From Promethearchaeota archaeon (GTDB taxonomy: Archaea > Asgardarchaeota > Lokiarchaeia > Sigyniarchaeales > SOKP01), in the NCBI GenBank assembly GCA_016839555.1, contig JAEOUA010000005.1, positions 96,595-160,594 on the forward strand: a DNA stretch of 64,000 nucleotides, read 5' to 3'. A program made the position numbers and the translations under genes. The notes beneath the pieces were generated by a model. The model had not been told where the DNA came from. It saw nothing but the letters and a program-made list of their open reading frames with translations, and made no database searches. Shown here piece after piece: positions 61,300 to 63,843 of the stretch (its first letter is position 1; each line of letters starts with the position of its first letter).

Positions 61300-61780
61300 G
61301 ATTCATTTCCTTTTAACAATAATTCTCAAAATATTCAAAATTGATATTATAATATAAAATCTCTTAAATAATAGGATTAATACATTACATTAATTCTGCT
61401 AAAATAAAAATTTTTGTTATTTTCTAAAAAATTTTTAAATGAGATATAATTTTGAATCCTAAAATCTTATGAAAACAATTCTTACAATTCATAATCAACT
61501 TTCAAAAGCAGAAATAATTATAATCTTATGAACGGAATTATTTCTTCAAAAAAAAATCAATAAGAATGAAAAAAAATACAAAAAAAATCAAATCTAATTT
61601 TCAATTAAACTCCCCACTTATTTTTTCTCTTAAATTTTGTCTGTTTTGTTTTTTAGATAAAAAAAAAATTTTTTTAAGAATTGATTATAAATCTAATTAT
61701 CAGTAATACTTTAAATAGAAAATGTAAAAAAATTAGAATATAATTTGATGATGTAAATGTCACTTAAAAAAGAAACAGAT

Positions 61781-61786
61781 GGAGGT
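61781..61786 (+). promoter_or_regulatory. Shine-Dalgarno sequence for cdhB (ATG 61794)
   Basis: GGAGGT 7 nt upstream of ATG; TATA-like TTTAAATA at ~61710. Confidence 0.75.
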
Positions 61787-61793
61787 AAAACCC

Positions 61794-62356
61794 ATGGCTA
61801 GGCCATATCAGAAAGCTAAAGCTTTCCAAGTTATCACTTGGTGGCGGCGATTATCCCTGGGCCTGAAATGGGCACAACTGTGAGTGACCCCGAAGTAATG
61901 GCTAATATCATTAATGCACCAAAGAAAAAAGTCATGGTAATAGGATCTGAGTCTTTAACCTGGGAACTTGATGGGAAAAAGGTGATCGATTATTACATTG
62001 AAATTGCGAAAAAATTGGGCTGTAATGTAGTAGCTACGGGGCATACTTATAAATATTTGATTGAGAATCTTGGTGAGGATAAAGTACACGATATGAACTT
62101 GATTAATATAACAGATAGACTCTCAGATAAAGATTGGAAGGGATTAGACGGTGGGGGACAATATGAAATGGCAATTTTTGGAGGACATCTCGTTTTTTAT
62201 GTTAGCCAAACACTCAGTCGACTCAAAAATTTTACTAATTGGGTTAGAACCATTGATTTGGACAGATATGCCCATCCTAATGCTCGATTTAGTCTTCCTA
62301 ACTTGGAAATGCACGAATGGAAAGAATTCTTAGAGGGAGTTATAAAGAATTTATAA
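61794..62356 (+). CDS. cdhB: CO dehydrogenase/acetyl-CoA synthase epsilon subunit; proposed join(61794..61819,61852..62356)
   Basis: IPGP, DKDWKGLDGGGQY, LSRLKNF, RYAHPNARFSLPNL; directly upstream of cdhC. The 5' end is interrupted by a 32-nt insert. Confidence 0.85.
61820..61851 (+). other. Candidate bulge-helix-bulge/loop pre-mRNA intron (32 nt)
   Basis: AGCTTTCCAAGTTATCACTTGGTGGCGGCGAT; internal hairpin, AAA bulge at the 5' junction; removal restores the frame and ANIPGP. Confidence 0.6.
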
Positions 62357-62406: not shown

Positions 62407-63843
62407 ATGAGTTTTAGCGACATGCCTGTGGATGTTGGCCCCGTCTATGAGGGGGAACGAATCCGCTCCAAACAAATGTTTGTAGAACTTGGAGGACCTA
62501 AAATACCTAAACATTTCGAACTTGTTAAAGTTCGAAAACCCTCGGAAATAAAAGATGGGGAAGTTATTCTTAGAGGTATTGATTTAGGAGAAATGGAAGA
62601 GGGATCCCGACATCCTATCGGAATTTTGGTAGAAGTTGCTGGTAAAGAATTAGAAGAGGATTTAGAGGCTGTCTTTGAGAGACGTATTCACGAATTCTGC
62701 AACTTTATAAATGGTGTGATGCACCTAAATCAGCGTTATACTAACTGGATGCGAGTTTCTAAAAAAGCGATTGAAAAGGGATTTAATTCTTTTAAGCAAA
62801 TGGGGACTATACTTATTAGATTATTCAAAGCAGAATTACCTATTATAGAGCAGGCACAAGTAACAATGATCACCAATGCTGATGTCATAGAAGAATATTA
62901 TGATATGGCAATAGAAACATATGAAAAAAGGGATGAAAGAGCACGCGGTTTGCATGATGATGATGTTGATATGTTTTATGGATGCGTTCTGTGTCAAAGC
63001 TTCGCTCCAACACATGTATGTACTATCACACCTGATAGGACAAGTTTGTGTGGCTCAATAAATTGGTTTGACGCGAGAGCGGCTGCTAAAGTAGACCCAA
63101 AGGGACCTATTTATGCGGTACCTCCCGGAGAATGTATAAATGGAGTTGCTGGCGAATATACTGGTGTTAATGAAATCACAAAAAAGCGCTCATTAGGAGA
63201 AGTGGAGAGAGTATATCTCTATTCTGGGATGGAGTGGCCACATACTTCCTGTGGATGCTTCGAGGCTATCGATTTCTATATTCCTGAAGTAAACGGACAC
63301 GGTATCATCGATAGAAATGCCGATATGAAAGCAATAAATGGATTGGCTTTTTCAACGATGGCAAACCAAACAGGAGGCGGGAAACAAATGCCTGGATTTA
63401 ACGGCATAAGCCTTCAATATATTGCAAGTCCAAAGTTTCAGATATATGATGCTATCCAAGAAGGGCTTGAACACGGAATTGAATTAACTGTATGGATGAA
63501 TAGTGAATTAAAGGAACGAGTAAAACAATTTATTCCTGAAGATCTTCAACCCAAAATTGCCACAGAAAAAGATGTTTCAAATATGAACGAGCTACGAGAG
63601 TGGTTAAAAGAAAAAGAACATCCTGTTGTAGCGACGTGGGTAGAAGAGGAAGAAGAGGAGGAATATGAAGAAGAATGGGCAGAAGAGGGTGCTATGGTTC
63701 CACTGGGCACCCAAACAATGACCATTCCTGGTGCTGGTGGAATAGGTGGATTTAAAATTATCCTTAAGAACTGTAAAGTCCACGCAGACGCCCTAATTAT
63801 AAAACGTATCGATAAAAGCGCGAAAAGAAAGAAAAAGAAATAA
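62407..63843 (+). CDS. cdhC: CO dehydrogenase/acetyl-CoA synthase beta subunit (acetyl-CoA synthase)
   Basis: YEGERIR, FYGCVLCQSFAPTHVC, PHTSCGCFE, acidic linker and C-terminal tail. Confidence 0.95.
   Translation: MSFSDMPVDVGPVYEGERIRSKQMFVELGGPKIPKHFELVKVRKPSEIKDGEVILRGIDLGEMEEGSRHPIGILVEVAGKELEEDLEAVFERRIHEFCNFINGVMHLNQRYTNWMRVSKKAIEKGFNSFKQMGTILIRLFKAELPIIEQAQVTMITNADVIEEYYDMAIETYEKRDERARGLHDDDVDMFYGCVLCQSFAPTHVCTITPDRTSLCGSINWFDARAAAKVDPKGPIYAVPPGECINGVAGEYTGVNEITKKRSLGEVERVYLYSGMEWPHTSCGCFEAIDFYIPEVNGHGIIDRNADMKAINGLAFSTMANQTGGGKQMPGFNGISLQYIASPKFQIYDAIQEGLEHGIELTVWMNSELKERVKQFIPEDLQPKIATEKDVSNMNELREWLKEKEHPVVATWVEEEEEEEYEEEWAEEGAMVPLGTQTMTIPGAGGIGGFKIILKNCKVHADALIIKRIDKSAKRKKKK

What the first reader, a model, noticed from the sequence alone, without database searches (positions are those of the whole stretch)
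61794..61883. Candidate tRNA-type (BHB/BHL) pre-mRNA intron in cdhB, first gene of the CODH/ACS operon
Seen in sequence: GGAGGT sits 7 nt before ATG 61794. That frame reads MARPYQKAKAFQVITWWRRL... and stops at TGA 61881-61883. The cdhB body is in another frame, which is closed upstream by TAA 61817-61819. The intervening stretch folds on itself: CCAAGT/ACTTGG stem with a TATC loop, extended by GCT(61821-23)/GGC(61843-45). Then come a 3-nt AAA bulge (61818-20), a central helix AGCT(61814-17)/GGCG(61846-49) with three pairs (one G-U) plus an A.G mismatch, an unpaired ATT.. on the 3' side, and exon-exon pairing CAG/CTG and AGGCC/GGCCT. Established: archaeal splicing endonuclease cuts after the 2nd nucleotide of each bulge, and protein-gene introns of this type are known mainly from crenarchaeal cbf5. 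Applying that rule removes exactly 61820-61851 (32 nt) and gives MARPYQKA-N-IPGPEMG in frame. ANIPGP matches my recollection of the Archaeoglobus CdhB N-terminus. Inference: an Asgard archaeon splices an mRNA for a Wood-Ljungdahl enzyme, possibly as a regulatory switch, since unspliced RNA gives only a 29-aa peptide. Caveat: the motif is relaxed (bulge-helix-loop), not a perfect BHB.
Basis: partly seen in the sequence, partly recalled or inferred. Interest (0 to 1): 0.93.

Follow-up and report, generated by a model that had tools for sequence, protein, structure and literature searches.

The report
tRNA-type mini-intron splitting cdhB mRNA
A Loki-type Asgard archaeon carries a real 32-base insert in the gene for a small subunit of its CO dehydrogenase/acetyl-CoA synthase; the insert is shaped like a tRNA intron, and removing it restores exactly the protein start seen in over 100 relatives, so this messenger RNA is very probably cut and rejoined by the tRNA-splicing enzymes, which is published for only one archaeal protein gene (cbf5).

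Summary
No RNA data were available.

- **Insert:** cdhB has 32 extra bases (61820-61851) compared with 25 relatives' loci. Removing them gives MARPYQKAN|IPGPEMG and 176 aa, which is the N-terminus of 114 of 120 homologue clusters. A. fulgidus CdhB (1ytl) also reads ANIPGP without a break.
- **Real DNA:** contigs from two other studies span the insert without gaps.
- **Fold:** the homology-defined boundaries lie after the second base of two 3-nt bulges around a 4-position helix. This is a relaxed bulge-helix-loop; about 1% of shuffles match it.
- **Second form:** other metagenome contigs carry a 30-nt insert at the same site with the same geometry. All four stem differences between its two versions keep pairing.
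- **Shared 5' module:** all intron-bearing alleles have a strong GGAGGT ribosome-binding site and AGG CC in exon 1; two of three have CCC before the ATG (the third TCTC). Near-identical intronless alleles lack the GGAGGT and CCC.
- **Host enzymes:** two EndA paralogues and RtcB are present.
- **Same kind elsewhere:** this scan had already noted such mini-introns in other genes of this genome. I re-verified four: rnhB, dnaG, top6B and AMP phosphorylase.
- **Not supported:** the regulatory-switch idea.

The parts
61710..61717 (+). TTTAAATA, an archaeal TATA-box-like element about 80 nt upstream of the ATG. It implies a leadered transcript.
   Evidence: Read directly from the sequence. Inference only, not tested.
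61781..61786 (+). Strong Shine-Dalgarno GGAGGT, 7 nt before the ATG. It is shared by all intron-bearing cdhB alleles and absent from near-identical intronless alleles.
61794..61819 (+). Exon 1: 26 nt encoding MARPYQKA plus the first two bases (AA) of the Asn codon.
   Evidence: identical in residues to the start of 114 of 120 homologue clusters
61820..61851 (+). 32-nt intervening sequence (mini-intron). It is absent from 25 relatives' loci and unique in the genome.
   Evidence: present in independent contigs
61814..61817 (+). 5' strand of the central helix (AGCU). It pairs with GGCG 61846-61849 as G-C, C-G and U-G, plus an outer A.G mismatch.
61818..61820 (+). 5' three-nucleotide bulge AAA. 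The predicted cut is after 61819.
   Evidence: the cut position gives the homologue-matching product
61821..61845 (+). Inner helix and loop of the intron: GCU/GGC closing pairs, and the 6-bp stem 61826-31/61836-41 with loop UAUC 61832-35.
   Evidence: a natural variant, C61835A, lies in the loop
61846..61849 (+). 3' strand of the central helix (GGCG).
61850..61852 (+). 3' bulge/loop AUU. The predicted cut is after 61851. No helix directly abuts it, so the motif is the relaxed HBh'/BHL form.
   Evidence: (outer run 0)
61852..62356 (+). Exon 2: the third base of the Asn codon, then IPGPEMG... to the stop codon (62354-62356). Joined to exon 1 it makes 528 nt and a 176-aa CdhB (PF02552).
61791..61795 (+). 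Exon-side clamp helix I: CCCAU (includes the AU of the start codon) pairs with AUGGG 61868-61872. It is found in all three intron-bearing allele types.
61800..61804 (+). Exon-exon clamp helix II: AGGCC pairs with GGCCU 61860-61864. All intron-bearing alleles use the AGG Arg codon, against 1 of 25 intronless relatives' loci; a further near-identical intronless allele, L049/L050, also uses AGG.
62407..63843 (+). cdhC (PF03598 + PF19436), the downstream gene of the cdhB-cdhC pair. It is uninterrupted.

Best explanation
cdhB of this Lokiarchaeial (Asgard) genome is interrupted after its 26th base by a 32-nt archaeal bulge-helix-bulge-type intron (61820-61851).

**Proposed mechanism (inferred):**
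1. The cdhB-cdhC transcript folds so that the last exon-1 bases (AGCU) pair with the intron's 3' end (GGCG).
2. That helix is flanked by a 3-nt AAA bulge and a 3-nt AUU bulge/loop, with the rest of the intron as a stem-loop.
3. The host's two-subunit splicing endonuclease (EndA alpha + beta) cuts after the second base of each bulge.
4. RtcB joins the exons and probably circularises the 32-mer.
5. The mature mRNA encodes the canonical 176-aa epsilon subunit, starting MARPYQKANIPGPEMG.

Unspliced RNA read from the strong ribosome-binding site gives only a 29-aa peptide.

**Shown:** the insert is real DNA, it sits exactly at this site, its removal restores the conserved protein, the motif geometry fits the homology-defined boundaries, and the enzymes are encoded.

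**Inferred:** that cutting and joining actually happen.
For: 1. **Exact insertion.** 25 relatives' loci have 27 nt from the ATG to the codon for the I of IPGP; the window has 59. Only G000 among 135 family genomes has an insert here.
2. **Product.** Removal gives MARPYQKAN-IPGPEMG and 176 aa, as in 114 of 120 homologue clusters. A. fulgidus CdhB 1ytl reads ANIPGP contiguously.
3. **Not an artefact.** Contigs of runs X4 (61586-61881, 0 differences) and X5 (61750-61967) from other studies span the insert with no gaps. The two listed of X5's three differences are a synonymous CAG>CAA in exon 1 and a change in the hairpin loop.
4. **Geometry.** At the homology-defined cuts there are 3 of 4 central pairs, 3-nt bulges and an inner helix. 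About 1% of shuffles do as well, and the MFE fold shows it.
5. **A second form.** A 30-nt insert sits at the same codon in contigs L031-L034, L053 and L054, with a 9-bp inner stem, an AAA bulge, a GGCC/GAUC helix and an AAC/AAU bulge. The same cut rule gives the same product there. About 0.3% of shuffles match it. All 4 differences between its two versions lie in the stem and keep pairing: one U-A to C-G double change and two wobble changes. A further variant changes only the loop.
6. **Enzymes.** Two EndA paralogues are present. One aligns end to end with the crenarchaeal heterotetramer chains 3p1z_B and 2zyz_B. An intact RtcB is present too. Asgard EndA is published as (alpha-beta)2 with the loop that gives broad specificity (PMC5829648).
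7. **Same rule elsewhere in this genome.** It restores DEAGRGP in rnhB (28 nt), FGQTEG in dnaG (29 nt), HTQYCAEF in top6B (32 nt) and HSTGGVPGNK in AMP phosphorylase (31 nt).
8. **Intron-rich host.** 17 of the 28 tRNA genes ARAGORN finds have introns of 8-43 nt.
Against: - The motif is relaxed. The central helix has an A.G mismatch, and no outer helix abuts the 3' bulge.
- Because of the GGCGGCG repeat, an alternative 3' register (a 29-nt intron, 61820-61848) also fits the rule and also restores the frame. It would give KAKIIPGP, one residue longer than the homologues.
- The fold energy is only 2 sd better than shuffles.
- The 30-nt alleles are in frame, so they could simply be translated through.
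- cdhA was not found in this 92%-complete assembly, so loss of the pathway in this population cannot be formally excluded.
Confidence: 0.8

Rival explanations
1. There is no splicing. The cell makes an N-terminally truncated CdhB from GTG 61841 or TTG 61838 (171-172 aa, as gene callers annotate it). ATG 61794 then only starts a 29-aa upstream peptide.
For: The open frame 61838-62356 exists, and the deposited protein P0001 starts at GTG 61841. It still matches PF02552 from profile position 13.
Against: No ribosome-binding site precedes 61838/61841, whereas a perfect GGAGGT precedes ATG 61794. The 29-aa frame runs across these starts to 61883. The truncated form would lack MARPYQKAN, which is the start of 114 of 120 homologue clusters, yet that coding sequence is kept intact just upstream in the window, in X5 (which has a synonymous change there) and in the 30-nt alleles. 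This model also does not explain the BHB geometry at two independent insert sequences.
Confidence: 0.08
2. The insert is a disabling insertion, and cdhB is a pseudogene or decaying gene in this population.
For: The frame is broken at the DNA level. cdhA was not found in the assembly, although relatives have it.
Against: Both exons and the downstream cdhC are intact. The same insert occurs in contigs from three studies (P1, P2, P3), and the only differences seen are silent or in the loop. Inserts at the same site persist in other lineages with pair-preserving changes. Other genes in the same genome, some expected to be essential (dnaG, rnhB, top6B), carry the same kind of insert, so such inserts cannot generally be lethal. 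The assembly is only 92% complete, and contig C3 ends 157 nt after cdhC.
Confidence: 0.06
3. The ribosome restores the frame by recoding: a -1/+2 frameshift somewhere in 61820-61880, or a T4 gene-60-style bypass from GCU 61815-17 to GCG 61847-49.
For: The two frames overlap between 61820 and 61880. A hairpin follows the putative take-off codon. A bypass would give MARPYQKA-IIPGP, close to the homologues.
Against: I found no X XXY YYZ slippery heptamer in the overlap by reading the sequence. The take-off and landing codons differ. A frameshift product would carry 10-20 unrelated residues that no homologue has. To my knowledge ribosomal bypass is not known in archaea. This model does not explain why the homology-defined boundaries sit at position 2 of two 3-nt bulges, or why the same rule works in four other genes.
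Confidence: 0.02

Closest known systems
BHB intron in the cbf5 (pseudouridine synthase) pre-mRNA of Crenarchaeota (Watanabe 2002; Yoshinari 2006; Yokobori 2009, PMC2738675)
   Same: Both are short intervening sequences in a protein-coding gene, with a frequently relaxed bulge-helix-bulge cleavage motif. Both occur in hosts with a hetero-oligomeric EndA of broad specificity. Both have a patchy distribution, with gain or loss among close relatives.
   Different: This case differs in phylum (Asgard/Lokiarchaeia), in gene (a Wood-Ljungdahl enzyme subunit, not an RNA-modification enzyme) and in position (9 codons from the start). It is linked to a distinctive 5' module: a strong ribosome-binding site and exon-exon clamp helices. 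It is one of several mini-introns in protein genes of the same genome. Splicing of cbf5 was shown experimentally; here it is inferred.
Archaeal pre-tRNA introns at canonical and non-canonical positions (hBHBh' and HBh' motifs; Marck & Grosjean 2003; Asgard tRNA census, bioRxiv 10.64898/2026.10.13.758758)
   Same: The size range matches: 8-43 nt in this genome's tRNAs against 32 nt here. The 4-bp helix, the 3-nt bulges, the cut after bulge base 2 and the presumed enzymes (EndA, RtcB) are all the same.
   Different: The substrate is an mRNA with no tRNA body to help recognition. The outer helix is replaced by distant exon-exon pairings.
EndA-dependent processing of an mRNA 5' UTR in Haloferax volcanii (Schwarz 2020, PMC7714728; the mRNA detail is recalled from memory, and I read only its abstract in the search listing)
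   Same: The splicing endonuclease acts on a BHB outside tRNA and rRNA.
   Different: There the BHB is in an untranslated region. Here the reading frame itself depends on excision.

Membership tests
Archaeal EndA-spliced (BHB/BHL) intron in a pre-mRNA | An intervening sequence that is absent from orthologues and whose exact removal restores the conserved reading frame and sequence | tested here: met
   There are 32 extra nt relative to 25 relatives' loci. Removal gives MARPYQKANIPGPEMG and 176 aa, as in 114 of 120 homologue clusters.
Archaeal EndA-spliced (BHB/BHL) intron in a pre-mRNA | [quoted passage not shown] | tested here: met
   Met in relaxed form. The parts are AGCU/GGCG (3 pairs plus A.G), bulges AAA and AUU, and an inner helix of at least 3 bp. 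The cuts coincide with the homology-defined boundaries, and 199 of 20000 shuffles do as well.
Archaeal EndA-spliced (BHB/BHL) intron in a pre-mRNA | Strict hBHBh' form: outer helices directly abutting both bulges | tested here: not met
   No pair abuts the 3' bulge (outer run 0). The nearest exon-exon helices are 61800-04/61860-64 and 61791-95/61868-72. The motif is therefore the HBh'/bulge-helix-loop class, which published work says needs a broad-specificity EndA (PMC5829648, PMC2738675).
Archaeal EndA-spliced (BHB/BHL) intron in a pre-mRNA | The host encodes a splicing endonuclease able to cut relaxed motifs, plus an RNA ligase | tested here: met
   There are two PF01974 paralogues (198 and 208 aa). 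One aligns over residues 27-198 to 3p1z_B 15-186. RtcB is full length. The presence of the specificity loop itself was not examined residue by residue.
Archaeal EndA-spliced (BHB/BHL) intron in a pre-mRNA | A spliced junction and/or a circular intron observed in RNA | not testable with these tools
   No RNA run holds the stretch. A search of metagenome contigs for the joined form gave nothing.
Archaeal EndA-spliced (BHB/BHL) intron in a pre-mRNA | RNA-level constraint on the intron (pair-preserving substitutions) | tested here: inconclusive
   32-nt type: the only variant seen is in the loop. 30-nt type: all 4 differences lie in the stem and keep pairing, including one double compensatory change, and one further variant is in the loop. 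With only three variants the sample is too small for statistics. Silent-site conservation of the insert gives P = 0.07.
Self-splicing group I / group II intron, or other known RNA family | A ribozyme core of hundreds of nt, or a match to a curated RNA family | tested here: not met
   The insert is 32 nt. No Rfam match with E up to 1 was found in 61600-62000.
Programmed ribosomal frameshift / translational bypass | A slippery heptamer, or matched take-off and landing codons, at the frame change | tested here: not met
   No X XXY YYZ heptamer lies in 61820-61880, and GCU versus GCG are not matched codons (read). The expected products do not match the homologues.

The most novel reading that the evidence does not exclude
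This Asgard lineage may use the tRNA-splicing machinery routinely on messenger RNAs. cdhB would be one of many protein genes (central metabolism, replication, repair) that need EndA/RtcB splicing of 28-32-nt mini-introns. The cdhB intron appears to travel as part of a recombining 5' cassette, made of a strong ribosome-binding site, clamp helices, exon 1 and the intron, which is polymorphic between otherwise near-identical strains. That would be population-level gain and loss of mRNA introns in the closest prokaryotic relatives of eukaryotes.
Probability: 0.5. Interest if true: 0.9.

Novelty: new member of a known kind. Interest (0 to 1): 0.8.

Why it matters
Protein-gene introns removed by the tRNA-splicing endonuclease have been published for essentially one gene, crenarchaeal cbf5. 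My library searches found no report of them in Asgard archaea.

- **A clean new case.** This one is in a Wood-Ljungdahl enzyme gene of a Lokiarchaeial genome. The predicted splice product is identical in its first 16 residues and in length to over 100 orthologues.
- **A natural experiment.** Intron-bearing and intronless alleles occur in near-identical backgrounds.
- **Annotation.** The deposited protein starts at an internal GTG and lacks the conserved N-terminus, so gene callers mis-annotate such genes.
- **Eukaryote origins.** Asgard genomes may hold a hidden layer of mRNA splicing, which bears on debates about the origin of interrupted genes in the eukaryotic lineage.
- **Testability.** RT-PCR or metatranscriptomes from the source sediments, or the recombinant enzymes, would settle it.

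Tried and rejected
1. **RNA evidence.** The look-up of sequencing runs listed no RNA holder, so expression and splicing could not be examined.
2. **Collection scans.** I scanned genome contigs and metagenome contigs with a gapped degenerate pattern for any 19-49-nt insert at this site. Both gave 0 hits, although the pattern works on local loci. These collections evidently lack the relevant records, so this says nothing about rarity. A scan for the joined (spliced or intronless) form of the window's own allele also gave 0 hits.
3. **Genome-wide de novo scans.** I searched for BHB-shaped inserts whose removal puts two long open frames in phase, with an out-of-phase class as control. In-phase and control counts were equal (878 vs 867, 260 vs 241, 841 vs 823). 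In this 30% GC genome the open-frame filter is too weak and many real exon 1s are short. The method was abandoned and yields no estimate of intron number.
4. **Regulatory switch.** Predicted unpaired probability is the same before and after splicing: 0.54 for the ribosome-binding site, and 0.33 versus 0.32 for the AUG. This gives no support.
5. **Mobile repeat.** The 32-mer has no other copy in the genome and shows no obvious sequence similarity to the other four mini-introns.
6. **Known RNA family.** There is no Rfam match.
7. **Spliced transcripts mistaken for alleles.** The intronless near-identical alleles L046-L050 are not spliced transcripts, because their 5' UTR and exon-1 silent sites differ from the intron-bearing alleles.
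8. **cdhA.** It was not found in G000 either by Pfam or by tblastn with a relative's CdhA. The assembly is incomplete, so I did not take this as absence.
Full report
**What is in the sequence**

The window is G000:C3:96595-160594, from a 3.74-Mb, 29.6% GC assembly that is 92% complete. At 61781-61786 there is a GGAGGT, 7 nt before ATG 61794. That frame reads MARPYQKAKAFQVITWWRRL... and ends at TGA 61881-61883. The body of a PF02552 protein (the CODH/ACS epsilon subunit, CdhB; E = 8e-24) lies in another frame, which opens after TAA 61817-61819 and runs to 62356. cdhC (PF03598 + PF19436) follows at 62407-63843, and the contig ends 157 nt later.

**The insert is defined by homology, not by structure**

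- A search of 60 related genomes found cdhB in 42 of them.
- In the 25 fetched loci that contain both motifs, the ATG of MARPYQK lies 27 nt before the codon for the I of IPGPEM. In the window the distance is 59 nt, which is exactly 32 extra bases.
- Relatives read ...AAR GCN AAY ATH CCN.... The window reads ...AAA GCT AA[32 nt]T ATC CCT....
- Of the 120 best homologue clusters, 114 begin MARPYQKAN-IPGP, and nearly all are 176 aa.
- Removing 61820-61851 gives a 528-nt frame and a 176-aa protein with that N-terminus.
- The deposited protein for this locus (P0001, 171 aa) starts at GTG 61841 and lacks the conserved start.
- A pattern scan of 135 genomes of the family found an insert at this site only in G000.

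**The insert is real DNA**

No RNA run holds the stretch, but DNA contigs from other samples do.
- A 296-nt contig of run X4 (a marsh metagenome from another study) covers 61586-61881 with no difference.
- A 218-nt contig of X5 (a third study) covers 61750-61967 with no gap and three base differences. Two were listed: G61811A, which is CAG to CAA and therefore synonymous in exon 1, and C61835A, which lies in the hairpin loop.

A sequencing or assembly error is therefore excluded. The variation seen is what one expects if both the exon-1 coding sequence and the stem matter.

**Structure**

The MFE fold of 61790-61875 contains:
- the 6-bp hairpin 61826-31/61836-41;
- GCU/GGC closing pairs 61821-23/61843-45;
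- a 3-nt AAA bulge at 61818-20;
- GCU/GGC at 61815-17/61846-48;
- two exon-side helices, AGGCC/GGCCU (61800-04/61860-64) and CCCAU/AUGGG (61791-95/61868-72).

In BHB terms the central helix is AGCU/GGCG: three pairs, one of them G-U, plus an outer A.G mismatch. The bulges are AAA and AUU, and the inner helix is present. No helix abuts the 3' bulge, so this is the relaxed HBh'/bulge-helix-loop form.

The established rule is a cut after the second base of each bulge. In pre-tRNA this corresponds to 37/38 (textbook knowledge; the motif is described in bioRxiv 10.64898/2026.10.13.758758). Applied here it gives 61819|61820 and 61851|61852, which are exactly the homology-defined boundaries. With the boundaries fixed, 199 of 20000 shuffles of the segment reach the same pairing.

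The fold energy on its own is only modestly unusual (z = -2.0). Because of the GGCGGCG repeat, a second 3' register also fits and also restores the frame. It would remove 29 nt (61820-61848) and give KAKIIPGP, one residue longer than the homologues, so I consider it less likely.

**A second intron form at the same site**

Two homologue clusters are 186 aa and read MARPYQKA-KKFVTSTGLI-NIPGP or -KKSVTSAGLI-. Their contigs (L031-L034, L053, L054) carry a 30-nt insert between the same two bases of the Asn codon. It folds as a 9-bp stem with an ACCUC loop, preceded by an AAA bulge and GGCC, and followed by GAUC and an AAC/AAU bulge. The same cut rule again yields ...GCC AAY AUH..., and about 0.3% of shuffles match the geometry.

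The two versions of this intron differ at four positions. All four are in the stem and all keep pairing: U-A to C-G (both sides changed), U.G to C-G, and U-A to U.G. At the peptide level these would be F to S and T to A. A third version (L032) differs only in the loop. The two host genes differ at 48% of third codon positions in exon 2, but at only 2 of 10 in the insert and 1 of 8 in exon 1 (P = 0.07 for the insert alone). This is suggestive but the sample is small. The sequence of the 30-nt intron is not recognisably similar to the 32-nt one.

**A shared 5' module and presence/absence polymorphism**

All three intron-bearing allele types share:
- GGAGGT 7-8 nt before the ATG;
- (C/U)C(C/U)C directly before the ATG, pairing with the AUGGG of the PEMG codons;
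- GCT AGG CC in exon 1, pairing with the GGN CC of the GP codons.

Only 1 of the 25 intronless relatives' loci uses AGG, and most lack the clamp pairing.

The 90%-identity clusters of the 186-aa proteins also contain 176-aa members. Their DNA (L046-L050) is identical or nearly identical to the intron-bearing contigs downstream and far upstream. It differs in a block that spans the proximal 5' UTR (37 or about 21 nt missing, including the GGAGGT), the silent sites of exon 1, the intron and, in one pair, the first 60 nt or so of exon 2. So the intron is exchanged, gained or lost together with its flanks, as a recombination tract. It is not lost by precise deletion, and these intronless contigs are not spliced RNA.

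In a protein tree all three intron-bearing forms fall in one 9-member subclade together with intronless sequences (SH-aLRT 83). A single origin is neither shown nor excluded. One contig (L051) starts inside the intron, which would fit an assembly break at the polymorphism.

**Host machinery and context**

- G000 encodes two EndA paralogues. One (198 aa) aligns over residues 27-198 with chain B of the crenarchaeal heterotetramers 3p1z/3ajv, and it also matches 2zyz_B. The other (208 aa) is more divergent.
- G000 also encodes a full-length RtcB.
- This matches the published (alpha-beta)2 EndA of Asgard archaea, which carries the loop linked to broad substrate specificity (PMC5829648). It also matches the link drawn between hetero-oligomeric EndA and relaxed pre-mRNA motifs in cbf5 (PMC2738675).
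- ARAGORN finds only 28 tRNA genes, and 17 of them have introns of 8-43 nt. That is in line with the heavily interrupted Asgard tRNA genes described in bioRxiv 10.64898/2026.10.13.758758.

Earlier notes of this scan list BHB-like inserts in other protein genes of the same genome.

| Gene | Position | Length | Central helix | Bulges | Motif restored |
|---|---|---|---|---|---|
| rnhB | C12:69954-69981 | 28 nt | AGGG/CCCU | AGA, AAA | DEAGRGP |
| dnaG | C7:129737-129765 | 29 nt | GGAC/GUCU | AAA, AAA | FGQTEG |
| top6B | C5:511956-511987, minus | 32 nt | ACAU/AUGG (the same outer A.G mismatch as cdhB) | ACA, AAU | HTQYCAEF |
| AMP phosphorylase | C12:205678-205708 | 31 nt | UAGU/GCUA | ACA, AAA | HSTGGVPGNK |

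The cdhB insert is therefore one instance of a recurring class in this genome. That makes a dead-gene reading unlikely, because some of the interrupted genes are ones expected to be essential.

**Mechanism and rivals**

The most likely reading (about 0.8) has these steps:
1. The cdhB-cdhC pre-mRNA folds into the BHL.
2. EndA cuts at the two bulges.
3. RtcB ligates the exons and circularises the 32-mer.
4. The mature mRNA gives the canonical 176-aa CdhB.

The rivals are:
- A truncated protein from GTG/TTG (0.08). There is no ribosome-binding site, the conserved N-terminus would be lost even though it is kept intact upstream, and the geometry is left unexplained.
- A pseudogene (0.06). The exons and cdhC are intact, the insert persists across studies, and other genes expected to be essential carry the same class of insert. 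However, cdhA is not in this incomplete assembly, whereas relatives have it.
- Ribosomal frameshift or bypass (0.02). There is no slippery site or matched codon pair, and the expected products do not fit the homologues.

The predicted accessibility of the ribosome-binding site and the AUG is unchanged by splicing. The clamp helices are exon-exon and persist after splicing. Their role, whether presenting the BHL or something else, is unknown.

**Novelty**

The mechanism class is known from cbf5 in Crenarchaeota. Four full-text searches found no report of EndA-type introns in Asgard protein genes. I file this as a new member of a known kind, of high interest for four reasons: the lineage, the metabolic gene, the natural intron-plus and intron-minus alleles, and the evidence that it belongs to a genome-wide set. 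Splicing itself remains to be shown in RNA.

Noticed in passing
G000 C12:69954-69981 (+), C12:205678-205708 (+), C7:129737-129765 (+), C5:511956-511987 (-): Four other protein genes of the same genome carry 28-32-nt inserts: rnhB, AMP phosphorylase, dnaG and top6B. Each has a 4-position helix and two 3-nt A-rich bulges. Removing each one by the same cut rule restores an invariant motif. Three of the four, like cdhB, lie within about the first 40 codons.
   Followed up: partly
L034:301-377 vs L049:536-582; L031:667-743 vs L046:1501-1547: Intron-bearing and intronless cdhB alleles occur in backgrounds that are otherwise 98-100% identical. They differ by a block that includes the proximal 5' UTR with the strong GGAGGT, the silent sites of exon 1, the intron and sometimes the start of exon 2. 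This looks like a recombination or co-conversion tract.
   Followed up: partly
L051:1-25: A JGI contig begins inside the 30-nt intron (CACCTCGACAGG...). This would fit assemblies breaking at the intron-plus/intron-minus polymorphism. Truncated cdhB calls of 152-162 aa sit at such contig ends.
   Followed up: no
G000, whole assembly: cdhA (the CODH alpha subunit) was not found by PF03063 or by tblastn with a same-genus CdhA, although five relatives have it. cdhD-like genes are present (C7:97196-98389; two on C12). Contig C3 ends 157 nt after cdhC.
   Followed up: partly
G000, whole assembly: ARAGORN finds only 28 tRNA genes in 3.7 Mb, and 17 of them are intron-containing (8-43 nt). Many tRNA genes are probably too interrupted to be called.
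   Followed up: no
window 61779-61796: An in-frame ATG at 61779 overlaps the Shine-Dalgarno sequence (ATGGAGGTAAAACCCATG). Mechanical ORF lists therefore start the short frame there (MEVKPMARPYQK), whereas homologues show that the true start is 61794.
   Followed up: yes
window 61815-61823 and 61843-61849: The intron's 5' edge duplicates the preceding exon bases (AAAGCT AAAGCT), and its 3' part has GGCGGCG. These repeats create two alternative BHB registers and may be a trace of how the insert arose.
   Followed up: no
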